Of a stretch of 64,000 bases of DNA, positions 13,404-33,001 are shown piece after piece. The stretch's first letter is position 1. Each line of letters opens with the position of its first letter. Made by a program: the position numbers and the translations under genes. The stretch is from an uncultured Planctomycetia bacterium. GTDB lineage: Bacteria > Omnitrophota > Gorgyraeia > 1-14-0-20-64-10. The stretch lies in contig CAYJTM010000001.1 in assembly GCA_964373055.1 (NCBI GenBank), forward strand, positions 28,688 to 92,687, in the 5' to 3' direction. The notes beneath the pieces were generated by a model. The model saw only the letters and a program-made list of their open reading frames with translations, made no database searches and had not been told where the DNA came from.

Positions 13404-14374
13404 CTTTCTCCTTGTTGGTTCAGGTGACGTTGCAGAAGCCCTAAGGCCAACCGGGCGGCTTGGGTCTGAGACTCGACCGTGGCACCGGCAATGTGGGGGG
13501 TAATCACGATCTGGCCCGAACGGTGAAAGCGAAGCAGCGGCGACCGGTCTTGGGTTCCCAGGGTTTCCCCCTCCAGAACGTCCAGGCCGACCCGAAGGTC
13601 GGGCCGCCGATCGAGAACGGTTGCCAGGTCCCTTTCCACCAGGACCTCGCCACGGGAGGTGTTCACCAGGCACGCCCCGGCTTTAAGCCGGCCCAACAAC
13701 GCGGCGGTGACCATTCCGGTTGTTTCCCGGCTCAAGGAACAGCAAATGCAGACCGCGTCGGATCGGCTGAACAGATCTTCCAAGGAAACGGCCGGAGCGG
13801 CGGCGGAAACAACGAGCGGATCGTGGTAAACAACCTGGGCGTCGAAGGCCGCGCAGTACCGGGCGACCCGCCGTCCGATCCGGCCGAAACCGACCAGGCC
13901 GACCTGTTTCCCCTGCAGCTCATACCCCCGCAGCAGCTCCTCGCGGTCCCGCCAGCGGCCTTCCGAGACTTCTCGGATCGCCGTGTCCAGGCGCCGCAGC
14001 GTGTTGAGCAACAGCAGGAACGTGAACTCCGCGCTGGCCGAGATCTCGTTCAACCCCTCCCGGTCATCCAGCAGGCTGTAGACGGCGACGCCCCGTTCCC
14101 GGCAGGCCTTGAGATCCAAGTGATTGCTTCCGGTGGAGGGAGTCACGATCACCGACAGGGCCGGGAGATCCCGAAGCACGGCGCCGTCCACGTGGAATTG
14201 CTGGCCCGGATTGACCACCCAAGCCGTGAGCCCGGGGTCCGGCAGGAGCTCTTCCCGCTTCCAGATCTCACGGAAGGCGGTCGGCATCAGGCGCCGGAAC
14301 TCCCCCTGGAGATCCCCCAGGAAAGAGAACGGCGCGCTAAAAAGGCAGGAAGCGGTCTGGGTTTTAATCATCAT
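13400..14374 (-). CDS. D-isomer-specific 2-hydroxyacid dehydrogenase family protein
   Basis: Start MMIKTQ (14374, ATGA overlap); GLVGFGRIGRRVA NAD-binding motif; catalytic His region ITPHIAG. Confidence 0.78.
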   Translation of the reverse strand: MMIKTQTASCLFSAPFSFLGDLQGEFRRLMPTAFREIWKREELLPDPGLTAWVVNPGQQFHVDGAVLRDLPALSVIVTPSTGSNHLDLKACRERGVAVYSLLDDREGLNEISASAEFTFLLLLNTLRRLDTAIREVSEGRWRDREELLRGYELQGKQVGLVGFGRIGRRVARYCAAFDAQVVYHDPLVVSAAAPAVSLEDLFSRSDAVCICCSLSRETTGMVTAALLGRLKAGACLVNTSRGEVLVERDLATVLDRRPDLRVGLDVLEGETLGTQDRSPLLRFHRSGQIVITPHIAGATVESQTQAARLALGLLQRHLNQQGER

Positions 14375-15069
14375 CGGACCACCTCCCTGACTCGGTCCGA
14401 AAGCCTCCGGAACTCCTCCGGGGTCGCGCTGAGCGCGTGGTCCCGGATCACGGTCGAGCTCTTGTCCATCGTGAAATGCTTTTCCAGGTAGCGGGCGCCC
14501 CGGTCGATCGCCAGGAAGCAGGCGGAGAGATCGAGGCAGTGGTCGCTGTAGCCGTAGTAGCCCGATTCTTCGAACCGCTCCGGAAACCCCGCAAGGTCCG
14601 ACCCGAAGGCCGGATATTTGGAGCGGCAATAGATGTAGAAAAGGGTTTTTCCGTCCGGCGGCCCGAACGGGAACCGGGGTTCATCCCACATCCCCAGGGA
14701 GACGAAGGTCGGCTTCCCCTCCGCCAGGATCTTGCGGACGAGCTCCGGGCGATCCACCACGGTGCGGGAGGCCACCTTGTAGCGCGGAAGCTCCAATTCC
14801 CGCGCCCACTCCAGCGCCTCCTCCGTGAAGAGTGAGGCCATCAGCTCGATACCGGTTTCCACGCACCAGTCTTTCAGCCGGCGTACCCGCCCGAGGTCCA
14901 TCGCGTTGATCTCCCCCGGCCCGGATCTCCAGCCGAACTGGAACTTGGCGGCGTCCGCCCCGGCGAGCTTCGCCTGGCGGATCATCTCCCGGGCGCGATC
15001 CCAATCTCCGTCGTGGTTCAGCCCGATCTCAGCAACAAGCAGCATGGAGGGGCTCCAGGCATTTTTCAA
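14371..15069 (-). CDS. NeuB-like nonulosonic/ulosonic acid synthase, short form (232 aa, no SAF domain)
   Basis: VAEIGLNHDGD, AKFQ, YKVAS, GYSDHCLD, EKHFTMDK...RDHALSATPEE; second NeuB paralog in window. The start may be the internal Met at 15045. Confidence 0.72.
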   Translation of the reverse strand: MKNAWSPSMLLVAEIGLNHDGDWDRAREMIRQAKLAGADAAKFQFGWRSGPGEINAMDLGRVRRLKDWCVETGIELMASLFTEEALEWARELELPRYKVASRTVVDRPELVRKILAEGKPTFVSLGMWDEPRFPFGPPDGKTLFYIYCRSKYPAFGSDLAGFPERFEESGYYGYSDHCLDLSACFLAIDRGARYLEKHFTMDKSSTVIRDHALSATPEEFRRLSDRVREVVR

Positions 15070-16653: not shown

Positions 16654-18101
16654 GGGGCCACCTTCTCCGGTGCTCCGGTTCTCGGGACCGGGGTCTGCGC
16701 AGCTGACGCCTGATGTGCCTGCCGCTGCCGCAGCAGGAACTCGATCAGCTGCAGATCGAAGGGGGTTTTGATCTGGAGACTTTCCTCCCGCGTCATCGTG
16801 ATGTGGCCAACCCTGCGGCCGACGAGATCCTGTTCGGTCAGGATGTCCCGCCAGAGGGCCCGGATCGCCCCGTTGCTCTCGTACAGGCCCTCCCGTTCGA
16901 GGCGGATCTGCCGGTGCATCGCCGGGTTGAGCGGCGTCAGCCCGTTCGGGCCGTGCACGAAATGGAGGTCGGTGTCTTCGCAGACGCTCACCACGCTGTC
17001 GGCCTCATACAGGATCAGGGTGTTCACCGCTTCGCGGATGTGCGCGGCGGTGCGCAGAGGCGCGTGCACGCTCAGCAGCACCAGGATGTCCGGCCTGCTC
17101 CCAAGCTTTTGTTCCAGGTGGGTCACCGCGTCCAGCGCCACTTCGGCTTCCGAGGTCCTCTCCCCGGAGAGCCCCGGAGAGCGCAGCATCGCGGAGATCC
17201 CCTGGACGCCCTGGCAGTGCCGCGCCACCTCGGGGTCATCGGTGCTGACCAGGATCTGCTCGAACAGCTCGGCCTGCAGCGCAGCCTCCAGCGTGTAGTC
17301 GATGAGCCGGGCCCCGGAGAGCTCTTTCAGCACGACGTTGGGCAGATGGGCGTAGCTGTTTTTCGCCTGCACGATCGCGGCGATCTTCAAGCCCGCCGTG
17401 CTGTTTCGGCTATCCACCATCGCCTGCTTGATTTGGCGGCGGGCCTCCAACAGACGCTCCTGCTTGCTGGACTGGGAATCGGCATGCTGACGGTAGAAAA
17501 AGAGGGGCGTCGCCACATTGGCGATCTCGTGCTGGGGGAGCAGCTTCAGCCACAACTCGTATCCGTCCTGGGCGCTGTGGCGCTCGTCATAGCCGCCCAG
17601 CTTTTTCAGCACCTCCCTGCGGACCAGCGTGCCGGCCCCGTGAGCGGGCAGGTCCAGGAACTGGGCCTCCTTCCCGATCCGTTTGCGGTGCTCCACGCCG
17701 AGGTAGTTGCCGGCTTCGTCCACGTAGATGTAGTTCGGGTAAACGAGTGCCACCTCCGGATGCCGATCCAAATAAGAGGTCAACACGAGCAGCGCGTTCT
17801 CATCCAGGAAATCGTCGGCGTCCAGCCGCAGGATAGTGTCGCCCCGCGCCGCTTGCAGCGCGGCATTGGCGCCAAACTGCAATCCGCGCGGCGGCGAATG
17901 CCGGATCACCCGGATCCGGTCCGGATGCTCCTTCTGGAAGCCCTCCGCCACCCGCGCCGTCTCATCCTCGGAGCCGTCGTCCACGATGATCAGCTCCCAA
18001 TCCGCGCGGCTCTGGCTCAAGACCGACTCGATGGCCTGCGCGAGATACCGCCCGTAATGGCGGCACGGGATGTAAACCGTCACCTTGGGGATCGAGCTCA
18101 T
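16650..18101 (-). CDS. Bifunctional: N-terminal GT2 glycosyltransferase + C-terminal acylneuraminate (CMP-NeuAc) cytidylyltransferase-like domain
   Basis: Start MSSIPKVTVYIPC (18101, ATGA overlap). N-terminal IIVDDGSEDET...DADD is GT2. C-terminal KIAAIVQAKNSYAHLPNVVLKELSGARLIDYTLEAA...LLSVHAPLR...ESNGAIRAL matches CTP_transf_3. Confidence 0.78.
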   Translation of the reverse strand: MSSIPKVTVYIPCRHYGRYLAQAIESVLSQSRADWELIIVDDGSEDETARVAEGFQKEHPDRIRVIRHSPPRGLQFGANAALQAARGDTILRLDADDFLDENALLVLTSYLDRHPEVALVYPNYIYVDEAGNYLGVEHRKRIGKEAQFLDLPAHGAGTLVRREVLKKLGGYDERHSAQDGYELWLKLLPQHEIANVATPLFFYRQHADSQSSKQERLLEARRQIKQAMVDSRNSTAGLKIAAIVQAKNSYAHLPNVVLKELSGARLIDYTLEAALQAELFEQILVSTDDPEVARHCQGVQGISAMLRSPGLSGERTSEAEVALDAVTHLEQKLGSRPDILVLLSVHAPLRTAAHIREAVNTLILYEADSVVSVCEDTDLHFVHGPNGLTPLNPAMHRQIRLEREGLYESNGAIRALWRDILTEQDLVGRRVGHITMTREESLQIKTPFDLQLIEFLLRQRQAHQASAAQTPVPRTGAPEKVAP

Positions 18102-19192
18102 GGAAGCTCCTTGGCCTTTCCGGTCCGTTGGGATTTGAGCGCCCGCATGAACTCTTCCTCGCTCAGGCCCGTGATCTGAAGGTAGTAATCCAGCTGCCCC
18201 GGCCGCTGGGGATCGAACTTCTTGATCAGCTCGAATCCCTCCTCGCGGGTGAGCAGCCCGGCCCGCACATCCTGGCTGACGTGATCGGTGGCCCGCCCGA
18301 AACCCCGTTTCACGAACTTGGCGTAGTCGTGCACGCCGGCCATCCTGCACTCCACGCTCTTGTACCCCTTGTAGGTCCCCTCGACGTTGTCTTCCCGCCA
18401 GCCGTAAGCGGATTTAAGAAACTCCACTTGCCGCTCGCCGTCCCAGAAGAGGTAGTCGCCGAGAAAGATCCCGCGGACGCCGGCGGCCTGGAGCTCCTCC
18501 GGGGTCGGAAACCGGAACGGGTAGAGGTCCCGGCCCGAGAGCCCCTCCCCCTCCATCCCTTCCACCCCCACCTTCATCGAGACCTTGGGATAGTAGCCCT
18601 CGTCGAACCGGACGGCGTCCTGGTAGCTTGCCTTGTTTCCCGCCTCGGCGACCGATTCCCCCCAGATGATCAAGGGGACGTTGAACTTGACAGCCACCTG
18701 CAGAGGGAAGGAGCCCACGCCCGCGTGGCAATGCCAGCAGGGATCCCCGATCCGGTAGAGGGATTTTTGGGCGATCCGGTTCACCAGGTCGCGGGCCGGG
18801 CTGAACAGCAGGTGGTCCACCCCCATCTTCTCCAGGATGTTCCAGAGATTGTATTCGCCGGTCTCGGTGAACCACCGGTGGCTGAAGGTGCAGGCCAGCG
18901 GCTTCATCCCGTATTGTTTCACCAGCACGTGAAGCTGGAAGGCGCTGTCCTTGCCTCCGCTGATCGGAACCAGGCAGTCGTAGTTGTCTCCGCTGGAGCG
19001 CTTGGCCTCTTCCAGGATCCCGCGCAGCTGCCGTTCTCGTTCGGCCCAATCGATACGCATCTTCTGTTCCGAGCTCTGGCACGCGCGGCAGACCCCCATC
19101 TCATCAAAGAGGGTTCCTTCGGAAGTCTCCGGCATGCAGCAGCGGACGCAGGTGCGCAGGTTCGCGAACAGAGGCCGGCCCGGCGCGCTCAT
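18098..19192 (-). CDS. N-acetyl sugar amidotransferase, PseA/WbuX family (PP-loop ATPase)
   Basis: 364 aa; N-terminal Cys-rich zinc ribbon (CVRCCMPE...CRAC), SGGKDS PP-loop, strong overall similarity to the PseA/WbuX family as recalled. Confidence 0.85.
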   Translation of the reverse strand: MSAPGRPLFANLRTCVRCCMPETSEGTLFDEMGVCRACQSSEQKMRIDWAERERQLRGILEEAKRSSGDNYDCLVPISGGKDSAFQLHVLVKQYGMKPLACTFSHRWFTETGEYNLWNILEKMGVDHLLFSPARDLVNRIAQKSLYRIGDPCWHCHAGVGSFPLQVAVKFNVPLIIWGESVAEAGNKASYQDAVRFDEGYYPKVSMKVGVEGMEGEGLSGRDLYPFRFPTPEELQAAGVRGIFLGDYLFWDGERQVEFLKSAYGWREDNVEGTYKGYKSVECRMAGVHDYAKFVKRGFGRATDHVSQDVRAGLLTREEGFELIKKFDPQRPGQLDYYLQITGLSEEEFMRALKSQRTGKAKELP

Positions 19193-20280
19193 CAGTTCAT
19201 CTTCGCGGCGGCCGCGAGGAACCGGCGCGCTTCCATCTCGGCCCGTTGCACCGCCTCTTCCGGAGGGCCATCCAGGATCGTAAAGGGGTTCTTCTCTTTG
19301 CGGATCGTCTTCAGGATCCGACCGGTGTCACCCGAGCAGGCTTCCACCAAAGACAAGAATCCACGGGCCTTGTCCTCAAACCGGCGCTCGTAGGTCCGGA
19401 GCCGATGGGAGAGGTCAGCCGCGCTGTCCCGGGTCCCGCCGTCGATCGCGTCGAGGAGCTCCGCGCGGGAAAGCGGCCGGGCCGCGCGGGCCAGCGTGTA
19501 GTACGCGCCCGGGATCCCCTCGAGGGGCTCGGAGGTGAACCGGATCGGCTTGAAGCCGAAGCGCAGCAGCGCCAGCTTCAGCGTCCGGTTCGAGAAATAG
19601 CGGTAATGGTTGTGGTTGTAATATTCCAGCGGGGAGCCCCACATCGCGTGGCTGCGGGTGCGCATCAGCAGCAGCCCGCCCTCCTCCAACACGAAGCGGC
19701 AGCGGCGCATCGCGCGGGAGAAATCGTAGACGTGCTCGAACGTGCCGAGGCTGACCGCCAGCGAGAACTCCCCTTTCCGGAACGGCAGGTTCTCGGCGTC
19801 GCCGATCCGCACTGGCAGCCGCAGGCCCCGGCCCGTCTTCACCGAGCCGACGTCCGGGTCCACGCCGGCGCACCGCCAGCCGGCTTTCAGGAACGGGACC
19901 ATCGTGGCGCCCGCCGAGCAGCCGATGTCCAGCATCTTGCCGGCGGAGCTGGCCGCCTTTTCGATGAAGCGAAGGATTTGTTCCCCCCGGTGTGTTTGCC
20001 GCCTCAGGTATTCTGCCGTGGGGGCGGAGCGGCCGGTGGCGACGTGCCGGTAGGTCTTACGGTAATAATCGATGTAGAACCGGCGCTCGTACCGCGGGTT
20101 GATCATCACGAACCCGCAGCGCCCGCAGACCCGCACCGGCAGCGGGCCGTAGACGCCCGGCCCGCCGACGCGGCCCTTGGACTGCAGCAGGCTGAACCGC
20201 CTGCTGTCGCAGATCTCGCAGGGGATCGTCCGCGGACGGTAGCGGCCGTTCATGCCGATGATTTCCAGATATTTTTTCAT
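19192..20280 (-). CDS. Zinc-ribbon SAM-dependent methyltransferase (class I); possible CmoB-analog partner of the adjacent CmoA
   Basis: 362 aa; CEICDSRRF...CGRCGF ribbon, MLDIGCSAGATM motif I, GTFEHV motif. Confidence 0.78.
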   Translation of the reverse strand: MKKYLEIIGMNGRYRPRTIPCEICDSRRFSLLQSKGRVGGPGVYGPLPVRVCGRCGFVMINPRYERRFYIDYYRKTYRHVATGRSAPTAEYLRRQTHRGEQILRFIEKAASSAGKMLDIGCSAGATMVPFLKAGWRCAGVDPDVGSVKTGRGLRLPVRIGDAENLPFRKGEFSLAVSLGTFEHVYDFSRAMRRCRFVLEEGGLLLMRTRSHAMWGSPLEYYNHNHYRYFSNRTLKLALLRFGFKPIRFTSEPLEGIPGAYYTLARAARPLSRAELLDAIDGGTRDSAADLSHRLRTYERRFEDKARGFLSLVEACSGDTGRILKTIRKEKNPFTILDGPPEEAVQRAEMEARRFLAAAAKMN

Positions 20281-21011
20281 GGTTTCAGCGCGATGAACGA
20301 GGCGAAGTTATACCAGCGGAAATACAGCTCCGGCGCGGCAAAACCGTTTCGCTGGAGCAGCTCGGCGTTCTCTTTTACCTTGTACGGGACCAGCACATTC
20401 TCCAGAGCTTCCCTTTTTTGCGCAATCTCCATTTCTGAATAGCCTTTCTTGCGCTTGAACTCGTAGTAGAGGTCGATATACATGCTGTTCAGCGTGGGGT
20501 CTTCCGCGAGCACCTTTTCCGACAGCAGCAGGCAGCCCCGCGGCCGCAAGGCCTGGAAGATGTTCCGGATCAGCGTGTCCCGGTACAGGGGGCGAACGAA
20601 CTGCAGCGTGTAGTTCATGATCACCACGCTGACGGGCCCAAGATCGAATTCCTGGTGGAGGTCCTGCTGGCGCAGGTCGCAGCGTTGAAGCAAGCCCAGC
20701 CGGCCCAGGTTCTCCCGGCTCTTGTCCAGCATCGCCTTCGAAAGGTCGAAGCCCACAATGCGGACCGTGGGGTCCGGAATGCCCTGACAGAGCAGGGCCA
20801 TCGTGGTTCCGGTTGAACAGCCCAGATCGGCCACCCCGCTGCCCGGCTGCGCGAAATTCCGGGCCAGCTCGACCGTCATGCGCTGCGCCTCCCTGTAGAG
20901 CGGCACGCTGCGCTCCAGCATATCGTCGAACACGTTGGCCACCGTCTCGTCGAACTGGAAGCCGGACGCCCTCTGCACCGGGGAATCGAAAATCTTGTCC
21001 CGGCCGCTCAT
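20277..21011 (-). CDS. cmoA: Carboxy-S-adenosyl-L-methionine synthase (CmoA family)
   Basis: 244 aa; N-terminal FQFDETVANVFDDMLERSVPLY and C-terminal KKGYSEMEIAQKREALENV align closely with E. coli CmoA ([20 protein letters not shown] ... ANGYSELEISQKRSMLENV); same length class. Confidence 0.8.
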   Translation of the reverse strand: MSGRDKIFDSPVQRASGFQFDETVANVFDDMLERSVPLYREAQRMTVELARNFAQPGSGVADLGCSTGTTMALLCQGIPDPTVRIVGFDLSKAMLDKSRENLGRLGLLQRCDLRQQDLHQEFDLGPVSVVIMNYTLQFVRPLYRDTLIRNIFQALRPRGCLLLSEKVLAEDPTLNSMYIDLYYEFKRKKGYSEMEIAQKREALENVLVPYKVKENAELLQRNGFAAPELYFRWYNFASFIALKP

Positions 21012-22381
21012 GAACGGCTCTCCGCCATCGCCGGGTCTCTCTGGGCCATTTCCACGGGGCTCCTCTCTTGCAGAAACCCTTCCTGCGTCAGCAGGCGGGC
21101 GAATTGGAGCAGCGGGTAATCCCCGTATTTTCGCCCCACCAGTTGCGCGCCGAACGGGAGCCCGGAGGGAGCGGTGAAAACCGGTATGCTCAGGGCCGGA
21201 ACACCGCAGAAGGTCCAGATCAGGCAGTTGTCCGGCAGGTCCCTTCCCTCGAGGCCGAGCGGGGCCTCTGAGCCGGTGGAGAGCGTAAGCAGCAGGTCTA
21301 CTGCTTTCTCCTCAAACAGGCGATCCAAATCCTGGGTGGCCCTTGCCTGAAAATCCAGGCAGTCCCGGTACTCGGCCGGGCCGACCTTCGCCCCTTCCTC
21401 CAGCATGGAGCGGAACAACCCGCTTAAGGCGTCCGGGGTCCGGTTCTCCGCCTTGAAGTAGTAGGCCAGCATGCGGCAATAGATCCGCTGGTGGACGTCG
21501 TGGATCCTTGCAAAATCGGGCGGCAGGTTCACATCGACAACCGAAACACCCCGCACCGCCGCAAGCCGGCCGACGAACCGCTCGAGCGCTTCTCTCGCGT
21601 AGGGCTTCGCCTGCTCCCACTTGGGCCCCCGCACGAAACCGACCCGCCAGCCGGAGGGGTCCGGCGCCTCAGCCGTGGGATCCACACGCTGCTGGACCAC
21701 TGGGTGGTTGCTCCCTCGAACGCGCGTCCGGTCGAAAATCAGCCGGAGATCGTCGATGTTCCGAGCCAAAAAGGAAACGTGATCCAACGTGTCCGTTGTC
21801 TTGAGCATGCCCGTCCTGGGAAGCAACCCGAAGCTGGGCTTGAAGCCATAGATGCCGCAGTAGCTGGCCGGCCGGATCGTGGAGCCGGCGGTCTGGCTGC
21901 CCAAGGCGAGGGGGACCATTCCCGTGGCGACCGCCACGGCCGAGCCGCTGGAAGAGGTGCCCGGTGAGCGGGCGAGATCGTGGGGGTTCCGTGTGGGCCC
22001 CGGCGCGTGGACCGCGAACTCACTGGTGACCGTCTTGCCCAGCACAATCCCGCCGCTGCGTTTCAACGCGGCCACCACCCGGGCGTCGTTTCCTGGGGTG
22101 AAGCCCTTCCAGAGGGGGCTCCCCATCTCGGTCGGCATCTCGGTTGTGTTGAAGATGTCCTTCACCCCGATTGGGGCTCCCTCCAGTGGGCCGGCGGTTC
22201 CGCCCCGTGCCCTGGAGTGGTCCGCTTCCTCCGCGTGCCGCAACGGGATCTCCGGATTCAGGAAGGCCCAGGCGCGGAGCTGCGGTTCCAGCGAATCGGC
22301 GCGAGATAAACAGGAGCGCGCCCATTCCGCGGAGCGGAGTTTCCCCGCCCGGATCTCCGGAATCGCCCTAGAGGCCGACAT
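21008..22381 (-). CDS. Amidase-signature family amidase (GatA-like)
   Basis: GTSSSGSAVAVATG (GGSSGG-type motif), Ser-cisSer-Lys context. Start likely MSASRAIPEIRAGKL (22381); the ORF track starts at 22426. Confidence 0.78.
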   Translation of the reverse strand: MSASRAIPEIRAGKLRSAEWARSCLSRADSLEPQLRAWAFLNPEIPLRHAEEADHSRARGGTAGPLEGAPIGVKDIFNTTEMPTEMGSPLWKGFTPGNDARVVAALKRSGGIVLGKTVTSEFAVHAPGPTRNPHDLARSPGTSSSGSAVAVATGMVPLALGSQTAGSTIRPASYCGIYGFKPSFGLLPRTGMLKTTDTLDHVSFLARNIDDLRLIFDRTRVRGSNHPVVQQRVDPTAEAPDPSGWRVGFVRGPKWEQAKPYAREALERFVGRLAAVRGVSVVDVNLPPDFARIHDVHQRIYCRMLAYYFKAENRTPDALSGLFRSMLEEGAKVGPAEYRDCLDFQARATQDLDRLFEEKAVDLLLTLSTGSEAPLGLEGRDLPDNCLIWTFCGVPALSIPVFTAPSGLPFGAQLVGRKYGDYPLLQFARLLTQEGFLQERSPVEMAQRDPAMAESRS

Positions 22382-22392
22382 CTGCCAGGGGT

Positions 22393-23157
22393 TCACGCGG
22401 CGCACGCCTCTTTCTGCGACATCCATTCCAGCGGAAGCCGACCGGCCGCAGCGGCTTGCATCACCGCGTGAAGATCAAAGTCCGGATCCCACGGATGGCA
22501 GGCCGTGAAGACCTCCCGGACCCCATCGAGGTTGTGAGGGTAATTAACGGCAAACGTCCACTCCGGTTTGTGGAGCTGAGCCCAGGGGCCTTCGGCCGCC
22601 AGGTAGCCGATCGAAAATTCTTCGGGATGTTCCGTGAAATAGCGTGTCGAATGCTCCCGGTCCATCGGATCGGTGGTCCGCGCAGCCACCCGGTCAAGCG
22701 CGTCGGCCGAGTAGACCTGGGCCCGGATCCCAATGGGGAATCGGGGCAGCCCCGCAGGGGCGTGCGGGTATTCCCGGGTCACATTGACGGCATAGTCAAA
22801 ACGGCCGGACTGATAGAGCCCCACCACGGCCTCGATCAGCGCCGAGTGGACCAGCGGGTTGTCGCCCAAGAGCTCCACGATGGCGTCCCCTCCGAAACGT
22901 TTCCATGCCTGATGGACGCGCCCGAGCACATCCTCGGCGGGGCCGCGGTGACAGAGAACGCCCAGGCGCTCTGCCCACAAGCTGAGGGGGGCGTCCTCCG
23001 GGCAGTCCGTCGTGGCCAGGACGATCCGGTCCAGACAGCGCGCCTTGGAAACCCGCTCCAGCATCCGTTCGATCATCGGTTTGCCCAGGATCAGCTGCAT
23101 TGTTTTGCCTGGAAACCGGCTGGAGCCCATCCGCGCCACTAGGATCGCCGTCGTCAT
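22393..23157 (-). CDS. Cytidylyltransferase, SpsF/PseF/NeuA-like (paralog of 3447..4211)
   Basis: Start MTTAILVARMGSSRFPGK (23157, ATGA overlap); 254 aa, same length and signature as 3447..4211. Confidence 0.82.
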   Translation of the reverse strand: MTTAILVARMGSSRFPGKTMQLILGKPMIERMLERVSKARCLDRIVLATTDCPEDAPLSLWAERLGVLCHRGPAEDVLGRVHQAWKRFGGDAIVELLGDNPLVHSALIEAVVGLYQSGRFDYAVNVTREYPHAPAGLPRFPIGIRAQVYSADALDRVAARTTDPMDREHSTRYFTEHPEEFSIGYLAAEGPWAQLHKPEWTFAVNYPHNLDGVREVFTACHPWDPDFDLHAVMQAAAAGRLPLEWMSQKEACAA

Positions 23158-23735
23158 GAGCCGTTTCCGAAGCGCCGCAGGAACTCGTTTTTGAGAACGC
23201 CGTATTCGATCACGTCCAGGTATCGGTTCTGTTTGAACGCCGCTTGGCGCCGGCACCCCTCTTCCCTCATCCCGAGGGAGCGGGCAAGCCGCCTCATCGG
23301 CGCGTTGGTTTCGAAGGTTCCGCAGTAAACCCGGTTCAGATTCAGCGTGAAAAAGGCGTGCCGGAGCAGCAAGGCCGCCGCCTCCTTCGAATACCCCTTA
23401 CCCCAGCAGGACCGGTCGCCGATGAGGATGGCGAACTCCCCGGAACGGGAGACCGGATCGATGCTCTTTAAGGCCACGTTCCCGATGTGCTGCCTGTCGC
23501 TCCGGCGGGCCACGGCCAGGATGAGCTCGCTCGCGTTGGAATGGGCCCGCTCGACGTACCGGAGCGCCTGCTCTCTCGAGTAAGGGAACCGGTGGTGCCC
23601 GTTCCCGGCGCAGACCACCTCATCGTTGAACCACTCCGCGTAGGGGCCGAAGGCGTCCTGGCGGCGGAGGGGCCTTAAAAAAACCTTTTTTCCTTGGAGG
23701 AAAGGAACCCCCTGGGAATGGACAGATTTCATCAT
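23154..23735 (-). CDS. GNAT-family N-acetyltransferase (PseH/RimL-like)
   Basis: Start MMKSVHSQ (23735); acetyl-CoA binding-like segment RQHIGNVAL...GKGYSKEA. The N-terminal 71 aa of the ORF track are discarded. Confidence 0.72.
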   Translation of the reverse strand: MMKSVHSQGVPFLQGKKVFLRPLRRQDAFGPYAEWFNDEVVCAGNGHHRFPYSREQALRYVERAHSNASELILAVARRSDRQHIGNVALKSIDPVSRSGEFAILIGDRSCWGKGYSKEAAALLLRHAFFTLNLNRVYCGTFETNAPMRRLARSLGMREEGCRRQAAFKQNRYLDVIEYGVLKNEFLRRFGNGS

Positions 23736-23763: not shown

Positions 23764-25059
23764 TTACCGGGGAGCGGATTCGAGGAGTGCGGGGGCGTTC
23801 TCGAGGACCTTGTGAAAAGCGGCACTAACCTGGTCCATATGCGTCTGCGTGAGGGGCCAGCGGCAGAACCGCCCGAAGAGGAGCTCCCGCTCAAACAGAG
23901 CTTCCGCGGCGGGACAGAGGCCGCGTGGATAGCGGTAGGGAGCTCCACCCGGCCCGTTCCGGAACGGGAAGCCCTCTTTCCCGATGGCGATCCCCTTCTG
24001 GAAGAGCGGCTCCCAGTAGACGGGTCGGGCGTAGTCGCTCCTCAAGGGGATCCCCTCCGCCTGGACGGCCCGCAGGAACAGCTCACGCGGCAGTCCGCAG
24101 CGCTTCTCGTCGTAGCGCATGGCGTAGAAGTAATAGACGTGCCGGCTGTCCGGGTCGAGCGCCCGCTGAGGCCGCAGGCCGGGCAGCGAGGCCAGCTCTT
24201 TGTCCAGCGAGGCGGCCAGCCGCAGGCGATGCTGCGTCAGCTCTTCCAGCCGGCGCAGTTGCACGGAGGCGATGGCCGCTTCAATTTCGGTCATGCGGGT
24301 GTTTCCGCCGAAGGTGTTCTCCAGGCGCTCCACCCCCAGGGCTTCCACCGCGGTTTCGCCGTGATTCCGGATCAGCCGCAGGCGCAGGGCCAGCTCCTCG
24401 TCCTCCGTCACCATCACCCCGCCCTCCCCGGTCTGGATCGTCTTGTGGACGTTGAGGCTGAACCCCCCGATCCGACCCAGCGTGCCCACCGGCTTGCCCC
24501 GGTACGCCGCCCCCGGGGCCTGCGCGCAGTCCTCGAGGACGGCCAGGCCGTGGCGGCGGGCGACCTCCAGCAGCGGCTCCATCGGGGCGGGATGCCCGAA
24601 CAGGTGGACCACCACCAGGGCCCGTGTCCGCTCGGAGATCCGTTCCTCCACTGAAACGGGGTCGATGCAGAAGGTCTGCGGGTCCACGTCCGCAAAGATC
24701 GGGACCGCCCCGTAGGCCAGCGGGCAGACGGCGGAGGCGGACATGGTCAGCGGCGGGACGATCACTTCATCGCCGGGACCGATTCCCAGCGCTCCGATGG
24801 CGGCGTACAGACCGGAGGTCAGGGAGTTGAAAGCGATCGCGTGGCGCACCCCAAAATGGCCCGCCCACTCCTGTTCCAGCTTGCGCACCCGTGGGCCACC
24901 CAGGAAACCGGGCCCGGGTCCCGCTTGGAATCCGGAGAGGGTCCCCGAATCCAGAACCTCGAGGACGGCCTGCTTCTCCTCCTTCCCGATGGTGGAGGCC
25001 TCGGGCCACCTCTCTCGGCAAACGGGGACGCCTCCCAGGAGGGCTAGCTGTTCAGGCAT
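23764..25059 (-). CDS. DegT/DnrJ/EryC1/StrS family aminotransferase
   Basis: 431 aa; EEKQAVLEVL..., SLNVHKTIQTGEGG PLP-lysine; paralog of the C-terminal half of gene 1. Confidence 0.85.
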   Translation of the reverse strand: MPEQLALLGGVPVCRERWPEASTIGKEEKQAVLEVLDSGTLSGFQAGPGPGFLGGPRVRKLEQEWAGHFGVRHAIAFNSLTSGLYAAIGALGIGPGDEVIVPPLTMSASAVCPLAYGAVPIFADVDPQTFCIDPVSVEERISERTRALVVVHLFGHPAPMEPLLEVARRHGLAVLEDCAQAPGAAYRGKPVGTLGRIGGFSLNVHKTIQTGEGGVMVTEDEELALRLRLIRNHGETAVEALGVERLENTFGGNTRMTEIEAAIASVQLRRLEELTQHRLRLAASLDKELASLPGLRPQRALDPDSRHVYYFYAMRYDEKRCGLPRELFLRAVQAEGIPLRSDYARPVYWEPLFQKGIAIGKEGFPFRNGPGGAPYRYPRGLCPAAEALFERELLFGRFCRWPLTQTHMDQVSAAFHKVLENAPALLESAPR

Positions 25060-28764: not shown

Positions 28765-30065
28765 CGGAATTCACCCCGCCAGTAGAGGAACGTGAACCAG
28801 ATTCGAGAAAGAACGTAGGCCAACGGGAGAAGGAAGGGATACAAAATCTTGCGGAGCATATCCCGCCACGAGGTGAACCGGGCGTACCACCTAAGGGGCG
28901 GCACCTCTCCGGAGAACGGGAGGAGAACGTTGAGCAGGGCGCGGGGCCTGGATCGGCTCCGGCCGAGGACCATGAACGGGTACTCCAGCTCACGCATCTC
29001 CCGCTCGTAGATCACTTCCAGGAACGCGATTTCCCGCGGGAGCAGCCGTTTCTTCCAGCGCTCGGTGACCTCTCTGTTCGGCCTGAAGAAACGGTCTTGC
29101 CCTGGAGGATCGTTGGCCAGCGGGCCCTGCGTGAAGGGCTGGTACGCGGTGCTGAAGGCGCTCATCCCTTGCCAGGGGACCCCGTTGGAGGTTGGGACGT
29201 AGTCGGGCGAAGACCAGGGATCAAACCAGCTTACGCCAAGCCAGCGCGTGAGCCGTTCCAGCGTGGCCGCAAACCGGAGATTGAGATCCTCGTTCCGCAC
29301 CGTGAAAACTTGGGCCTGATCCACGCCGGATTTCCAGAAACGGACCGCCCGCGCGCCGCGCGTGGTGGTCAGCAGGATCCAAACCCATGTGAAGCCGTTC
29401 TCGCCCCGGAGGAACCGCTCCAGCGGGTACATGCTCCGCCACTGGTTGACATACTGGTGGCGCAGGGAGGCGAAGTTGGCGCGGGGATCCCGCACCAGAT
29501 GGATCACCCGGGCGGGAGGGGACTCTCTTCGGACGGCCTCCAGGAAAGCTCCGTCGTTGGACTCGACCGACTCGGTCAGCAGCAGGTACCGGATGGAGCG
29601 CAGGGACCTGCCGGTGGCCAGCGCGTAGCCCAGGTAGAGGGCCCGGACTACATCGGACGGGCTGACCTCCGCTTGGTCTCGCACGAGCGCGCGAAGGACC
29701 CGCCGCACCGCCTCTCGGTCGATCGGCGCGTTCGGGTCGTTTCCCATCCGGAGAAACAAGCGGCGGATCTCCGGGGTCGGGTCGTTCACCAGAAGGGAGA
29801 CATTGGTTTCGGTCATCAGATGCTCAAAGGCCTCCCTGCCGGGGAGGGCGCTCCGGCCTCGAGCGAGCTCCGTGAGGCCCTGGTAGAGATAGGAGACATA
29901 AGGCAGGGTCAGGACCTCCGGGTGCCGGTCGAACAGCCGGGTGAAGAAATTTCCGCCCGCCCGGGCATGATCCACCGCGAGGAGAAGAGGCGCTTGCCGT
30001 ATCCCCGCGAAGGCCTCCCCGAGGTCGGCCGGGGCGGCCTGCAGAGGGGCGGAGGAGATCGTCAT
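28761..30065 (-). CDS. Sulfotransferase-domain protein with C-terminal membrane anchor
   Basis: Start MTISSAPL (30065, ATGA overlap); HARAGGNFF resembles the 5'-PSB loop, HLVRDPRANFAS the 3'-PB motif (RDPRD...S); hydrophobic C-terminus ILYPFLLPLAYVLSRIWFTFLYW. Confidence 0.55.
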   Translation of the reverse strand: MTISSAPLQAAPADLGEAFAGIRQAPLLLAVDHARAGGNFFTRLFDRHPEVLTLPYVSYLYQGLTELARGRSALPGREAFEHLMTETNVSLLVNDPTPEIRRLFLRMGNDPNAPIDREAVRRVLRALVRDQAEVSPSDVVRALYLGYALATGRSLRSIRYLLLTESVESNDGAFLEAVRRESPPARVIHLVRDPRANFASLRHQYVNQWRSMYPLERFLRGENGFTWVWILLTTTRGARAVRFWKSGVDQAQVFTVRNEDLNLRFAATLERLTRWLGVSWFDPWSSPDYVPTSNGVPWQGMSAFSTAYQPFTQGPLANDPPGQDRFFRPNREVTERWKKRLLPREIAFLEVIYEREMRELEYPFMVLGRSRSRPRALLNVLLPFSGEVPPLRWYARFTSWRDMLRKILYPFLLPLAYVLSRIWFTFLYWRGEFR

Positions 30066-31108: not shown

Positions 31109-33001
31109 CTATAACCCGCGTGGAGCGTCCAAGGGGCGCTCGAGGGAACGAAGCCACACTTCAAACGTCAGCAGCAGCCACAACCTCTGGCCGGCATCCT
31201 CCCGCCCGCTGTCATGATGATGAAGGAAGGCCTGCAGCCCTTCCGGCTTGAGGTACCGAAGCACTCTCGGGCGCCCCGCCGCAAGGAGGTCGTGCAGCGG
31301 TTCCTTCCAGGGACCCCGGAACCAGGTTTCAAGCGGAACGCCAAACCCCATCTTCCTGCGGGTCAAGATCGGTTGCGGGAGGTCATCCCGGAACGCTCTC
31401 CGCAAGATCCATTTCGTGACCCCTTTTCTCCACTTGAAGCGGTCCGGCAGAGAAAAGCTCCATTCGATCAAGCGCGTATCCAGGAAAGGAGAGCGGGTTT
31501 CCAGGCCGTGGGCCATGCTGCATCGATCCAACTTCACGTTTAAATCATTCGGCAGGTAATCGTGAAAATTGAGCCGGAGGAGTTGTTGCAGCGGGGTCGC
31601 CCCCTGCTCCACGGCCACGGCCGGATCCGGCTGGCGGTATTCCGGTCGCAGGATGGAGTCCAGGTCCGGGAAGTAGCGCATCCAGGAGGAAAACCGTTCC
31701 GGTAGCCCTAAGTGGGCGGACGCGAAGAAACGGCGCAGCCGCGTCCAAGAGGATTTCTGAGAAGCCCCGGCCGGCAGCCGGTTCGCGAGATGAGAAGCGA
31801 GCAAGCGGATGGGACGCGGAATCCTCTCGGCAAAGAGGCCCGCCGAAAAGCGGTCGTAACCGGCAAAGAGCTCATCCCCGCCGTCCCCGGTGAGGGCCAC
31901 GGTCACCTGGGACCGGGCCCACTGGGACAGCAGGTAGGTGGGAACCGCGGAAGAATCTCCGAAGGGCTGGTCATGGTGCCAGACGAGTTTTTCCAGAAGA
32001 TCGAAGGACTGGGCGGTTACGGTGAACAGATGATGCCGGGTTCCAAACCGGGCCGCCGCTTGGTTCGCGAAGGAGGCCTCGTTGTAGCGCTCATCCCCTT
32101 CAAACCGGATGCTGAAGGTGCGAAGCGGTTCCCCCGTGATCAGCTTCGACAACAGAGAGACCACGATGCTCGAGTCCAACCCACCGCTTAGGAAAGCGCC
32201 CAGAGGCACGTCGGAAATGAGCCGGCGGCGGACAGACTGGGTCAAGAGGTCCCGCAGCTGGTCGACGGCTTCCTGATCGGACCGAGGCGCCGGAACGGCG
32301 CCGGGGACCGGGTTTGGGGCTGGGAGAGACCAGTAGACGCGGGGCTGGGGATCCGGATCATCGGCGCGGAAACGGAGCAAGGCGGCCGGAGGGACTTGGC
32401 GTATTTCTCGATAGCAAGTCAAGCCGGCGGGAGGGGCGCCGAAGGCCAGCAGAACTCCCAAGGCCTTCTCGTTGACCTCCCGGGGAACGTGGGGATGGGC
32501 CAAGAGGGCCTTGATCTCTGAGGCGAAGGTGACACAGCGGCCGTCGGTCCAGTAATAAAGCGGCTTCTTGCCCGTGCGATCGCGCGCCAGCAGGAGCTCT
32601 TGACGGCGGGAGTCCCACAAAGCGATGGCAAACATCCCGTCCAGGCGCGGGATCGCTTCCGCTCCCCAGACCTCGTAGGCGCGAAGGATGACCTCGGTGT
32701 CCGACCGGCTCCGGAATCGGCAGCCGCGCGCAGTCAGCTCCTCCCGGAGCTCCTTGAAATTATAGATCTCGCCGTTGAAGCAAATCCAGAGGGATCCGCT
32801 TTCATTCGACATGGGTTGGTCGGCCGCTTCCGACAGGTCGATCACCCTCAGGCGGGCGTGGGCCAGCGCGATTCCCGGTTCCGGAAGGAGATGGGCAAGC
32901 CGGTCGGGCCCCCGGTGCTTCAACCGGTCGGCCATGGAAGCGGCTTCTTGCTCCGCCACCGGCCGGCGATCCCAATGGACAATCCCCCCGAATCCGCACA
33001 T
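31109..33001 (-). CDS. asnB: Asparagine synthetase (glutamine-hydrolysing) family amidotransferase (AsnB/WbpS-like)
   Basis: 630 aa; N-terminal MCGFGGIV (Ntn Cys2), SGGLDSS PP-loop. Confidence 0.88.
   Translation of the reverse strand: MCGFGGIVHWDRRPVAEQEAASMADRLKHRGPDRLAHLLPEPGIALAHARLRVIDLSEAADQPMSNESGSLWICFNGEIYNFKELREELTARGCRFRSRSDTEVILRAYEVWGAEAIPRLDGMFAIALWDSRRQELLLARDRTGKKPLYYWTDGRCVTFASEIKALLAHPHVPREVNEKALGVLLAFGAPPAGLTCYREIRQVPPAALLRFRADDPDPQPRVYWSLPAPNPVPGAVPAPRSDQEAVDQLRDLLTQSVRRRLISDVPLGAFLSGGLDSSIVVSLLSKLITGEPLRTFSIRFEGDERYNEASFANQAAARFGTRHHLFTVTAQSFDLLEKLVWHHDQPFGDSSAVPTYLLSQWARSQVTVALTGDGGDELFAGYDRFSAGLFAERIPRPIRLLASHLANRLPAGASQKSSWTRLRRFFASAHLGLPERFSSWMRYFPDLDSILRPEYRQPDPAVAVEQGATPLQQLLRLNFHDYLPNDLNVKLDRCSMAHGLETRSPFLDTRLIEWSFSLPDRFKWRKGVTKWILRRAFRDDLPQPILTRRKMGFGVPLETWFRGPWKEPLHDLLAAGRPRVLRYLKPEGLQAFLHHHDSGREDAGQRLWLLLTFEVWLRSLERPLDAPRGL

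What the first reader, a model, noticed from the sequence alone, without database searches (positions are those of the whole stretch)
18098..22426. PseA/WbuX-type amidotransferase with a GatA-like amidase nearby and no WbuY/WbuZ (HisH/HisF-like) partners
PseA/WbuX enzymes convert acetamido to acetamidino groups on sugars and normally depend on HisH/HisF-like WbuY/WbuZ for ammonia delivery. Here a WbuX-like gene lies in the same operon as, and two genes from, an amidase-signature (GatA-like, glutaminase-type) protein, and no HisH/HisF-like gene is visible in 64 kb. The amidase may be a non-canonical ammonia donor. Together with the AsnB-like gene (31109..33001), the glycan probably carries amidino and/or carboxamide groups.
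Basis: inference. Interest (0 to 1): 0.55.

Follow-up and report, generated by a model that had tools for sequence, protein, structure and literature searches.

The report
Amidase-partnered acetamidino-sugar amidotransferase (WbuX)
A sugar-modifying enzyme that normally gets its ammonia from HisH/HisF-like helper proteins is paired here with an amidase instead; the pairing recurs across bacteria and archaea, often as one fused protein, and I found no paper describing it.

Summary
Gene 18098-19192(-) is a WbuX/PseA-family N-acetyl-sugar amidotransferase. Gene 21008-22396(-) is a catalytically intact amidase-signature enzyme. No HisH/HisF-like gene exists anywhere in the 64 kb.

- In 78 of 80 species genomes chosen by amidase similarity, a WbuX orthologue lies directly beside the amidase. 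The other two loci are cut by contig ends. Most pairs have overlapping stop and start codons.
- In 44 of 52 evaluable metagenome loci chosen by WbuX similarity, the amidase follows directly. None has HisH/HisF.
- About 65 protein clusters are single-chain WbuX-linker-amidase fusions.
- WbuX paralogues that sit beside WbuY/WbuZ form a separate clade (27-40% versus at least 48.6% identity).

One correction: the amidase is closer to malonamidase E2 than to GatA, so its amide substrate is unknown. The two intervening genes are a CmoA (carboxy-SAM synthase) homologue and a methyltransferase, which is a lineage-specific insertion. No biochemistry exists, and no paper I could find describes the pairing. 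Verdict: a new variant of a known system, widespread rather than special to this window.

The parts
18098..19192 (-). WbuX/PseA-family N-acetyl sugar amidotransferase (364 aa), amidase-associated subfamily
   Evidence: TIGR03573 345.5 bits versus cut-off 203.2. 8WEX match E 1e-45. 52-85% identical to WbuX genes beside amidase orthologues in about 120 other loci.
18944..18961 (-). PP-loop SGGKDS (aa 78-83) of WbuX, the ATP pyrophosphatase motif
   Evidence: Read from the translation. The motif is defined for the family in PMC10607449. It is invariant in 59 fusion proteins.
19079..19150 (-). Tetracysteine motif CxxC...GxCxxC (aa 15-38) of WbuX; binds zinc in the solved family member
   Evidence: C15, C18, C35 and C38 in the translation. 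Zinc binding was shown for LpNASAT in PMC10607449.
19192..20280 (-). Class I SAM-dependent methyltransferase (362 aa) between CmoA-like and WbuX
   Evidence: Methyltransf_23/11. Not CmoB-like. Orthologues sit beside WbuX in L022 (54%), L090 (63%) and L155.
20277..21011 (-). CmoA homologue (carboxy-S-adenosyl-methionine synthase-like, 244 aa)
   Evidence: TIGR00740 242.1 bits versus cut-off 193.3. 39% identical to E. coli CmoA over the full length. The arginine aligned to 4GEK chain residue 213 (Arg199 in native numbering, from my memory) is kept. Same position in L090 and L155.
21008..22396 (-). Amidase-signature amidohydrolase (462 aa; longest ORF extends to 22426), proposed ammonia-generating partner of WbuX
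   Evidence: PF01425 260.6 bits. In numbering from 22426, K89, S158 (cis-Ser), S182 (nucleophile) and R185 are invariant in the family and align to K62, S131, S155 and R158 of malonamidase E2. A WbuX gene lies beside its orthologues in 78/80 genomes.
22393..23157 (-). CMP-sugar-type cytidylyltransferase (CTP_transf_3)
   Evidence: Pfam PF02348 83 bits. Gene limits from the assembly calls in L001.
23154..23735 (-). GNAT N-acetyltransferase (weakly PseH-like)
   Evidence: PF13302 84 bits. TIGR03585 PseH 32.6 bits, sub-threshold. Limits from L001.
23764..25059 (-). DegT/PseC-like sugar aminotransferase
   Evidence: PF01041 295.9 bits. PseC model 217 bits, sub-threshold.
14371..15045 (-). NeuB-family nonulosonic acid synthase, same operon
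   Evidence: PF03102 108.7 bits. Limits from L001. A NeuB homologue is present in 37/48 related loci longer than 15 kb.
31109..33001 (-). AsnB-type glutamine-dependent amidotransferase (630 aa), a separate amidation activity
   Evidence: Asn_synthase 345.9 bits plus GATase_7 158.8 bits. Not linked to the WbuX-amidase pair elsewhere (4/48 loci).

Best explanation
WbuX (18098-19192) and the amidase (21008-22396) are two subunits of one amide-dependent amidotransferase. It converts an N-acetyl group of a nonulosonic-acid-type sugar into an acetamidino group.

Proposed mechanism:
1. The amidase uses its Ser-cisSer-Lys triad to hydrolyse a small carboxylate-bearing amide. Candidates are glutamine, asparagine or a malonamate-like compound; which one is unknown.
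2. The nascent ammonia passes to WbuX.
3. WbuX uses its PP-loop to adenylate the acetamido oxygen with ATP, so that ammonia can displace AMP and give sugar-N-C(=NH)CH3.

The amidase therefore does the job that the HisH-like glutaminase WbuY and the HisF-like barrel WbuZ do in the canonical system.

What is shown: the family memberships, the intact catalytic motifs, the absence of HisH/HisF, and the conserved adjacency, fusion and co-divergence.

What is inferred: physical complex formation, ammonia transfer, the identity of the amide donor, and the sugar substrate. The substrate is probably a CMP-activated 5,7-diacetamido nonulosonate, judged from the NeuB, CMP-transferase, DegT and GNAT neighbours.

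My sub-confidences are 0.9 for a dedicated partnership, 0.7 for ammonia donation, and 0.35 for glutamine as the donor.
For: Selection by amidase: at least 591 species genomes hold a relative of the amidase. In the best 80, which span more than 15 bacterial phyla plus archaea and CPR bacteria, 78 have a WbuX gene (52-75% identical to the window's) directly beside it. The other 2 are cut by contig ends.

Translational coupling: 29 pairs overlap by exactly 4 nt and most others lie within about 20 nt.

Fusions: L048, L051, L072 and L077 encode one ORF of about 870 aa, WbuX-linker-amidase. A search with that fusion returned about 65 clusters of 848-893 aa covering at least 98% of it at 38-93% identity. 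One is WP_211249788.1 of Solidesulfovibrio alcoholivorans.

Intact chemistry: across 59 fusions the PP-loop and the amidase Lys, Ser-Ser and Ser-x-x-Arg positions are invariant.

Structure: an AlphaFold2 model of a fusion has pLDDT 88.4 and pTM 0.83, with only the linker at low confidence. This is consistent with a fixed inter-domain arrangement.

Selection by WbuX: 44/52 evaluable loci have the amidase directly downstream and none has HisH/HisF.

Partition by partner: HisH/HisF occur in only 3 of the 80 loci. There they flank extra WbuX paralogues (TIGR03573 322-377 bits; HisF-like protein reaches TIGR03572 WbuZ at 305.9 bits) that are only 27-40% identical to the amidase-type clade. Within that clade identity is at least 48.6%.

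Co-divergence: pairwise distances of WbuX and amidase correlate at r = 0.86, Mantel p = 0.001.

Precedent: amidase-signature enzymes include a known ammonia-channelling glutaminase subunit, GatA of GatCAB (PDB hits; the channelling role is from my knowledge of the family). The closest solved homologue, malonamidase E2, releases ammonia from a small carboxy-amide, and its carboxylate-binding Arg158 is kept (the role of Arg158 is from memory, and PDB 1OBK is an R158Q mutant).
Against: - No enzymology exists for any member, and WbuX chemistry itself rests on genetics.
- The amidase is not an orthologue of GatA and reaches no curated equivalog model, so glutaminase activity is unproven.
- pTM is only indirect evidence of docking.
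- The amidase is not strictly indispensable to this WbuX clade. L141 and L147 lack it. L124-L128 carry only a fused remnant that has lost the Lys and cis-Ser region.
- In the window the pair is separated by two genes, so the coupling is looser than in most genomes.
- Housekeeping HisH/HisF elsewhere in this genome cannot be excluded.
Confidence: 0.72

Rival explanations
1. The amidase acts on the sugar or its substituents rather than as a nitrogen donor. It might remove an N-acyl group, hydrolyse an amide-linked substituent, or work as a transacylase through its acyl-enzyme intermediate. Under this reading it is linked to WbuX only because both act on consecutive pathway steps.
For: Amidase-signature enzymes hydrolyse very diverse amides (PDB hits). 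One family member, ClbL, is reported to form amide bonds (bioRxiv 10.1101/567248, abstract seen). The cluster contains many other tailoring enzymes, including GNAT, formyltransferase-like and deacetylase genes.
Against: Pathway neighbours are rarely fused and rarely this constant. The one invariant neighbour across phyla is WbuX, not GNAT, deacetylase or NeuB. The family keeps the malonamidase E2 Arg158 equivalent, which by my recollection binds a substrate carboxylate. That fits a small acidic amide better than a bulky CMP-sugar. HisH/HisF are missing exactly where the amidase is present.
Confidence: 0.12
2. WbuX here uses free ammonia, or the organism's housekeeping or distant HisH/HisF. The amidase would then be a structural or regulatory partner without a nitrogen-supplying role.
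For: Some members of this WbuX clade have no amidase, or only a catalytically dead remnant (L141, L147, L124-128). This suggests WbuX can work without an active amidase. The rest of the genome is not visible.
Against: The catalytic Lys, cis-Ser and Ser are invariant in 18 stand-alone amidases and 59 fused ones, so hydrolytic activity is under selection. Loci that carry both systems keep HisH/HisF beside a different WbuX clade.
Confidence: 0.1
3. The AsnB-like enzyme (31109-33001) is the nitrogen donor or amidine-forming partner in this cluster, and the amidase is unrelated to it.
For: AsnB has its own class-II glutaminase domain. In one related locus (L147), AsnB-like genes follow WbuX where the amidase would otherwise be.
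Against: AsnB-type enzymes are self-contained glutaminase-plus-synthetase proteins (both domains sit in one chain). An AsnB homologue occurs in only 4 of 48 related loci, whereas the amidase is near-universal. In the window it lies 9 kb from the amidase and 12 kb from WbuX.
Confidence: 0.04

Closest known systems
WbuX/WbuY/WbuZ, also known as PseA + HisH/HisF-like, WbpG + HisH2/HisF2, and AglY/AglX/AglZ: the acetamidino-sugar amidotransferase system
   Same: The synthetase component belongs to the same family (TIGR03573, PP-loop, 4-Cys zinc site). The genomic setting in surface-glycan and nonulosonic-acid clusters is the same. The presumed reaction is the same: N-acetyl to acetamidino, using ATP and ammonia.
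   Different: There is no HisH-like class-I glutaminase and no HisF-like barrel. A single amidase-signature protein stands in their place, often fused to WbuX. The WbuX proteins concerned form their own subfamily, at least 48.6% identical to each other and 27-40% identical to the WbuY/Z-linked paralogues examined.
GatCAB tRNA-dependent amidotransferase (GatA glutaminase subunit)
   Same: An amidase-signature hydrolase generates ammonia for an ATP-dependent partner. The Ser-cisSer-Lys triad is the same.
   Different: This amidase is not a GatA orthologue (188 bits versus a 481 cut-off). No GatC-like or GatB-like partner is present. The acceptor enzyme is a PP-loop ATP pyrophosphatase acting on a sugar, not a kinase-type transamidase acting on aminoacyl-tRNA.
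Malonamidase E2 (Bradyrhizobium japonicum; PDB 1OBI, 1OCK and related entries)
   Same: It is the closest solved relative by sequence (208 bits, aligned over 372 residues) and by fold (TM 0.88). K62, S131, S155 and R158 are all conserved.
   Different: Malonamidase E2 is a stand-alone catabolic amidase of 412-414 residues. This family is always coupled or fused to WbuX and carries family-specific invariant motifs such as TPGNDAR and RPASYCG.
Glutamine-dependent NAD+ synthetase, GMP synthetase and AsnB: PP-loop or adenylating synthetases with a dedicated glutaminase domain
   Same: The logic is the same. An adenylating synthetase is joined, as a subunit or as a fusion, to an amide hydrolase that supplies ammonia.
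   Different: Those enzymes use nitrilase-type, class-I triad or Ntn-type glutaminases. To my knowledge, an amidase-signature domain joined to a PP-loop synthetase has not been described.

Membership tests
WbuX/PseA N-acetyl sugar amidotransferase (NASAT, TIGR03573) | Whole-protein match above the curated cut-off | tested here: met
   345.5 bits versus 203.2, covering profile positions 2-343 of 344.
WbuX/PseA N-acetyl sugar amidotransferase (NASAT, TIGR03573) | PP-loop SGGxDS | tested here: met
   SGGKDS at aa 78-83. The motif is defined in PMC10607449.
WbuX/PseA N-acetyl sugar amidotransferase (NASAT, TIGR03573) | Tetracysteine motif CxxC-Xn-[GN]xCxxC (zinc site) | tested here: met
   C15-x2-C18 ... 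G33-V-C35-x2-C38.
WbuX/PseA N-acetyl sugar amidotransferase (NASAT, TIGR03573) | Converts a sugar N-acetyl group to an acetamidino group | not testable with these tools
   This needs an enzyme assay or glycan MS/NMR.
Canonical three-component WbuX/WbuY/WbuZ system | HisH-like glutaminase (WbuY) and HisF-like barrel (WbuZ, TIGR03572 / NF038364) encoded with WbuX | tested here: not met
   No HisH, HisF or HisA homologue in any six-frame ORF of the window. No GATase or His_biosynth domain in any gene. The same search detects WbuZ in control loci L014, L017 and L028. The rest of the genome is not visible.
Amidase signature (AS) family, PF01425 | Full-length Pfam match | tested here: met
   260.6 bits, profile positions 3-445 of 445.
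Amidase signature (AS) family, PF01425 | Ser-cisSer-Lys catalytic triad | tested here: met
   K89, S158 and S182 (numbering from 22426) align to K62, S131 and S155 of malonamidase E2. They are invariant in the family.
GatA (glutaminase subunit of GatCAB, TIGR00132) | Score above the equivalog cut-off | tested here: not met
   188.2 bits versus a cut-off of 481.1. PDB GatA chains score 125-135 bits versus 208 for malonamidase E2.
GatA (glutaminase subunit of GatCAB, TIGR00132) | GatB and GatC partners encoded nearby | tested here: not met
   No GatB or GatC family hit in any gene of the window. In related loci WbuX and the amidase abut or overlap, leaving no room for a small ORF between them.
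GatA (glutaminase subunit of GatCAB, TIGR00132) | Glutamine as substrate | not testable with these tools
   The substrate-pocket residues of GatA lie in the C-terminal half, which does not align by sequence. No model coordinates are available.
CmoA carboxy-SAM synthase (TIGR00740), for gene 20277-21011 | Score above the equivalog cut-off and full-length similarity to E. coli CmoA | tested here: met
   242.1 bits versus 193.3. 39% identity over 243 aa. The arginine aligned to 4GEK chain residue 213 (Arg199 in native numbering, from memory) is conserved. The stricter NF011995 model is not reached (181 of 285).
CmoA/CmoB tRNA cmo5U pathway | CmoB carboxymethyltransferase partner | tested here: not met
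   The adjacent methyltransferase shows only a 28-residue SAM-motif match to E. coli CmoB and no CmoB NCBIfam hit.

The most novel reading that the evidence does not exclude
Beyond the amidase-for-HisH/HisF swap, the window's lineage has inserted a CmoA homologue and a methyltransferase between the amidase and WbuX. The same arrangement is seen in L090, L155 and several short contigs. The most novel reading is that carboxy-SAM made by the CmoA homologue is used by the neighbouring methyltransferase to carboxymethylate, rather than methylate, the newly made acetamidino group or another position of the nonulosonic acid. That would be the first use of carboxy-SAM in glycan biosynthesis and would give an N-carboxymethyl-acetimidoyl type sugar.
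Probability: 0.2. Interest if true: 0.8.

Novelty: new variant of a known kind. Interest (0 to 1): 0.66.

Why it matters
Acetamidino sugars put a positive charge on flagellin glycans, O-antigens and archaeal N-glycans, so they affect antigenicity and host recognition. The enzymology that makes them has, to my knowledge, never been reconstituted. The 2023 structure paper states that little is known about function (PMC10607449).

If the amidase is the nitrogen-supplying subunit, three things follow:
- Amidase-signature enzymes join the class-I, Ntn and nitrilase types as glutaminase-like partners of adenylating synthetases. The only precedent is GatA.
- Hundreds of genes annotated simply as 'amidase' or 'GatA family amidase' beside nonulosonic-acid genes get a role. 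Fusion proteins named only 'N-acetyl sugar amidotransferase' get their second half explained.
- The natural single-chain fusions offer a tractable one-protein system for finally assaying acetamidino formation. One comes from the cultured Solidesulfovibrio alcoholivorans.

Annotation rules that infer acetamidino modification from WbuX+WbuY+WbuZ would miss this whole subfamily.

Tried and rejected
- I first suspected that ORFs 58776-59531 (251 aa) and 59489-60115 (208 aa), next to a 366-aa ORF, were a hidden HisF/HisH/WbuX triad. They are a transaldolase/FSA-like protein, a SIS/GmhA-like protein and a methyltransferase.
- I tested whether the methyltransferase 19192-20280 is a CmoB analogue by sequence. 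It is not.
- I asked whether the amidase travels with AsnB, as a deamidase/amidase cycle. It does not: AsnB is in 4/48 loci.
- Five literature searches for any link between an amidase and PseA, WbuX, acetamidino, legionaminic or nonulosonic acids found nothing relevant.
- Jones et al. 2012, the paper on the archaeal AglXYZ system, is not held. Its mechanistic content is cited from memory only.
- I could not identify the source organism. The exact amidase sequence is on unnamed NCBI and Logan contigs, and the nearest genome relative is only 58% identical (an uncultured Gemmatimonadetes MAG).
- I could not map the glutamine-binding residues of GatA onto this family, because the C-terminal halves do not align by sequence and model coordinates are not exposed.
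- The Foldseek search of the fusion model found no solved chain that covers both domains.


Full report
**What is in the window**

The 64-kb window has about 64% G+C, and almost every gene is on the minus strand. It is one very large surface-glycan biosynthesis region. It holds two NeuB-family synthases, four CMP-type cytidylyltransferase domains and several DegT aminotransferases. It also holds many glycosyltransferases, an ABC exporter, a sulfotransferase, an AsnB homologue, a PEP-mutase fusion, a B12-radical-SAM enzyme and seven or more methyltransferases.

The reported interval 18098-22426 holds four genes whose stop and start codons overlap by 4, 4 and 1 nt:

| Gene | Coordinates (minus strand) | Product |
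|---|---|---|
| 1 | 21008-22396 | amidase |
| 2 | 20277-21011 | CmoA homologue |
| 3 | 19192-20280 | class I methyltransferase |
| 4 | 18098-19192 | WbuX |

The gene limits agree with those called on three public contigs that carry the identical sequence.

**Check of the observation**

- WbuX is a clear family member. It scores 345.5 bits against TIGR03573 (cut-off 203.2).
- It has the PP-loop SGGKDS and the CxxC...GxCxxC zinc motif that define the family (motifs as described for the Legionella enzyme in PMC10607449).
- It matches that crystal structure, 8WEX, at E 1e-45.
- The amidase is a full-length amidase-signature protein (PF01425, 260.6 bits).
- No HisH/HisF-like gene is present. phmmer with E. 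coli HisH, HisF and HisA against all six-frame ORFs of at least 60 aa found nothing in the window, although it picked up such genes in other loci. Family scans of every plausible gene show no class-I glutaminase or HisF-type barrel.
- I briefly suspected a 251-aa/208-aa/366-aa gene trio at 58.8-61.2 kb of being a hidden triad. It is a transaldolase-like, SIS-domain and methyltransferase set.

**Is the amidase really linked to WbuX? Selection by the amidase**

The amidase belongs to a tight family. Thousands of database proteins match it, and the best 120 are 50-100% identical and come from many phyla.

I scanned one genome per prokaryotic species with an alignment of the family. At least 591 genomes encode a relative. 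I examined the best 80 loci. They come from Gemmatimonadota, Verrucomicrobiota, Planctomycetota, Chloroflexota, Omnitrophota, Campylobacterota, Pseudomonadota, Acidobacteriota, Bacteroidota, Cyanobacteria-related lineages and CPR bacteria. They also include Methanosarcinales, Halobacteriales, Nanoarchaeota and Woesearchaeota.

In 78 of these 80 loci a WbuX gene, 52-75% identical to the window's, lies directly beside the amidase. In the other two, the contig or fetched stretch ends about 90-170 nt before the amidase. Two of these neighbours were confirmed as TIGR03573 members (337 and 341 bits).

The usual order is WbuX then amidase. In 29 pairs the genes overlap by exactly 4 nt, and most others are within about 20 nt, which is the signature of translational coupling. 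The window, a Gemmatimonadetes MAG (L008) and a Planctomycetia MAG (L022) have the reverse order.

**Gene fusions**

In four loci (Dehalococcoidia, Chloroflexia, Desulfarculia, Desulfobacteraceae) the two genes are one uninterrupted ORF of about 870 aa: WbuX, a 40-60-residue linker, then the amidase.

A protein search with one such fusion returned about 65 clusters, at 90% identity, of 848-893 residues. They cover at least 98% of the fusion at 38-93% identity. One is from the cultured Solidesulfovibrio alcoholivorans (WP_211249788.1), named only 'N-acetyl sugar amidotransferase'. Triple fusions of about 1150 aa also exist.

Across 59 fusions the PP-loop, the four cysteines and the amidase Lys, Ser-Ser and Ser-x-x-Arg positions are invariant. 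Both chemistries are therefore under selection.

An AlphaFold2 model of the S. alcoholivorans fusion has mean pLDDT 88.4 and pTM 0.83, with low confidence only in the linker. For a two-domain protein that value suggests a defined inter-domain arrangement. I could not inspect coordinates, so this is indirect. No solved structure covers both domains.

**Reciprocal test and partition by partner**

I then selected loci by WbuX similarity from metagenomes. The 52 evaluable loci had WbuX at least 49% identical and enough flanking DNA. They divide as follows:

| Outcome | Loci |
|---|---|
| Amidase directly downstream | 44 |
| WbuX fused to a dead amidase remnant lacking the Lys and cis-Ser region | 5 near-identical loci |
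| No amidase downstream | 3 |
| HisH/HisF present | 0 |

Of the three without a downstream amidase, L090 has the window's gene order and is cut off upstream, so its amidase cannot be assessed.

HisH/HisF-like genes appear in only three of the 80 genome loci, all Chthoniobacterales. There they sit beside additional WbuX paralogues, and one HisF-like protein reaches the curated WbuZ model (305.9 versus 299.7 bits). Those paralogues are 27-40% identical to the amidase-linked WbuX proteins, which are at least 48.6% identical to each other (median 61.5%).

There are therefore two WbuX subfamilies, each with its own partner type, and they can coexist in one locus without swapping partners.

Pairwise divergences of WbuX and the amidase across 72 species correlate strongly (Pearson 0.86, Mantel p = 0.001). 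The pair is inherited and transferred as a unit.

**What kind of amidase it is**

'GatA-like' needs correcting. No curated NCBIfam equivalog is reached (best: AtzE 205 of 461 bits; GatA 188 of 481).

The nearest solved protein, by sequence (208 bits, aligned over 372 residues) and by fold (TM 0.88), is malonamidase E2 of Bradyrhizobium. GatA chains score 125-135 bits.

The catalytic K62, cis-S131 and S155 of malonamidase E2 align with invariant K89, S158 and S182 of the window protein. R158 aligns with invariant R185. Numbering here is from the long ORF; subtract 10 for the 462-aa form. From memory, R158 binds the substrate carboxylate, and the PDB titles list mutants at each of these positions.

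I infer that the substrate is a small amide that carries a nearby carboxylate. Glutamine, asparagine and malonamate-like donors all fit, and the data do not choose between them.

**Most likely mechanism**

All adenylating amidotransferases that use an organic nitrogen donor pair a synthetase with an amide hydrolase, as separate subunits or as a fusion. By that analogy the amidase liberates ammonia and passes it to WbuX. WbuX activates the acetamido oxygen with ATP at its PP-loop and forms the acetamidine.

In the canonical system the same roles are taken by WbuY/HisH (glutaminase) and WbuZ/HisF (barrel). These appear in the curated models as 'glycosyl amidation-associated protein WbuZ' and 'AglZ/HisF2 family acetamidino modification protein'. 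Genetic evidence comes from Methanococcus maripaludis (Jones et al. 2012, J Bacteriol 194:2693). I saw that title only in reference lists, so its content is from my memory.

The sugar is probably a nonulosonic acid. NeuB homologues occur in 37 of 48 related loci longer than 15 kb. The window operon itself encodes DegT, GNAT, CMP-transferase and NeuB genes around the pair.

The family memberships, motifs and genomic linkage are shown. Complex formation, ammonia transfer, the donor and the acceptor are inferred.

**Rival explanations**

- The amidase could act on the sugar, or act as a transacylase. However, the one constant neighbour is WbuX, the two are often fused, and the amidase appears exactly where HisH/HisF are missing.
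- WbuX might use free ammonia, with the amidase merely structural. The few lineages with no amidase or a dead remnant show that WbuX can do without an active amidase. The strict conservation of the triad elsewhere argues that hydrolysis matters.
- AsnB is self-contained and is not linked to the pair elsewhere (4/48 loci).

**What is peculiar to this window**

The CmoA homologue and the methyltransferase inserted between the amidase and WbuX are restricted to close relatives:
- L155, a MAG contig that is syntenic over ten genes;
- L090;
- several short contigs that carry both an amidase 67-88% identical and a CmoA-like protein 77-88% identical to the window's.

L022 has the methyltransferase but no CmoA.

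The CmoA homologue passes the curated CmoA cut-off and is 39% identical to E. coli CmoA over its whole length. It keeps the arginine that aligns to chain residue 213 of 4GEK, which is Arg199 in native numbering by my recollection. The neighbouring methyltransferase is not CmoB-like.

Carboxy-SAM is known outside tRNA in 3-thiaglutamate and microcin C biosynthesis (PMC10491745) and in phage DNA modification (PMC12783734). I found no report for glycans.

By analogy with the N-methylacetimidoyl legionaminic acid of Campylobacter (from my own knowledge), the methyltransferase may alkylate the amidine. Whether it uses SAM or carboxy-SAM is open.

**Novelty and verdict**

Seven full-text searches were run on the acetamidino/amidase question, five of them aimed at an amidase link. 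None found a paper that connects an amidase with WbuX, PseA or acetamidino formation. The one structural paper on the family does not discuss the nitrogen source. Public databases name the fusions after the WbuX half only. The library lacks most subscription journals, so a prior description cannot be excluded.

I classify this as a new variant of a known kind. It is a real, widespread, amidase-partnered form of the acetamidino-sugar amidotransferase, and the window is one member with an unusual gene order and an extra CmoA/methyltransferase insertion.

Noticed in passing
window 19192-21011 (-); also L090:1-1664 and L155:2800-4601: A CmoA (carboxy-SAM synthase) homologue and a 362-aa methyltransferase are inserted between the amidase and WbuX. 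This is conserved only in close relatives. It may indicate alkylation, perhaps carboxymethylation, of the amidino sugar. I found no report of carboxy-SAM use in glycan biosynthesis.
   Followed up: partly
L156:1-6547, L157:382-5592, L158:1-5553: The next-closest CmoA-like proteins (about 60% identical) are not next to CmoB. Each sits beside a 260-290-aa methyltransferase. Two of the three loci (L156, L158) also have B12-radical-SAM enzymes, and L156 and L157 have a C39-peptidase ABC exporter. This looks like a peptide natural-product cluster that uses a CmoA-plus-transferase module.
   Followed up: partly
L124-L128 (e.g. L125:5998-7911); proteins P0206-P0240: WbuX proteins of about 600-640 aa carry a C-terminal vestige of the amidase. 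It aligns from the nucleophile region onward at 23% identity and has lost the N-terminal roughly 165 residues that hold the Lys and cis-Ser. The domain is apparently dead but retained.
   Followed up: partly
proteins P0155, P0161 (about 1150-1180 aa); P0200, P0213 (WbuX+GNAT); P0209 (WbuX+formyltransferase); P0219 (WbuX + kinase-type domains): WbuX of this subfamily is also found fused to GNAT acetyltransferase, formyltransferase and kinase-like domains. In triple fusions an extra unidentified stretch of about 330 aa precedes or flanks WbuX-amidase.
   Followed up: no
L014:1395-14771, L017:8835-17515, L028:5184-17281: Three Chthoniobacterales genomes carry both systems in one locus: amidase-type WbuX and one or two canonical WbuX+HisH/HisF sets. 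This implies two or three different acetamidino modifications.
   Followed up: partly
window 36666-38423 (-): A PEP phosphomutase is fused to a nucleotidyltransferase domain. This suggests that the glycan, or a companion polymer, carries a phosphonate group. A B12-radical-SAM methyltransferase-like gene (57138-58703) and an HpaI-type aldolase (54352-55107) lie further along.
   Followed up: no
window 25052-31096 (-); compare L004:11934-18759 and L141:7218-11065: A module recurs in distant relatives: a large protein with no known domain (662 aa here; 628 aa in L004 and 695 aa in L141, homology not tested, though a 27%-identical match exists in L015), an ABC exporter, a sulfotransferase and a pyruvate-kinase barrel-only protein. 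Parts of it appear in an Omnitrophota genome and a metagenome contig. Its function is unknown.
   Followed up: no
window 6860-11481 (-) and 50432-52189 (-): Three long ORFs (788, 777 and 585 aa) have no Pfam family. They lie in stretches of lower G+C (0.55-0.62) or strong AT skew (about 0.2) compared with the rest of the window. They may be membrane polymerase/ligase-type proteins or recently acquired DNA.
   Followed up: no
L147:7164-10591: In one metagenome locus, a WbuX of this subfamily (62% identical) is followed by a short AsnB-like protein and then a full AsnB instead of the amidase. This may be a third way of supplying nitrogen.
   Followed up: no
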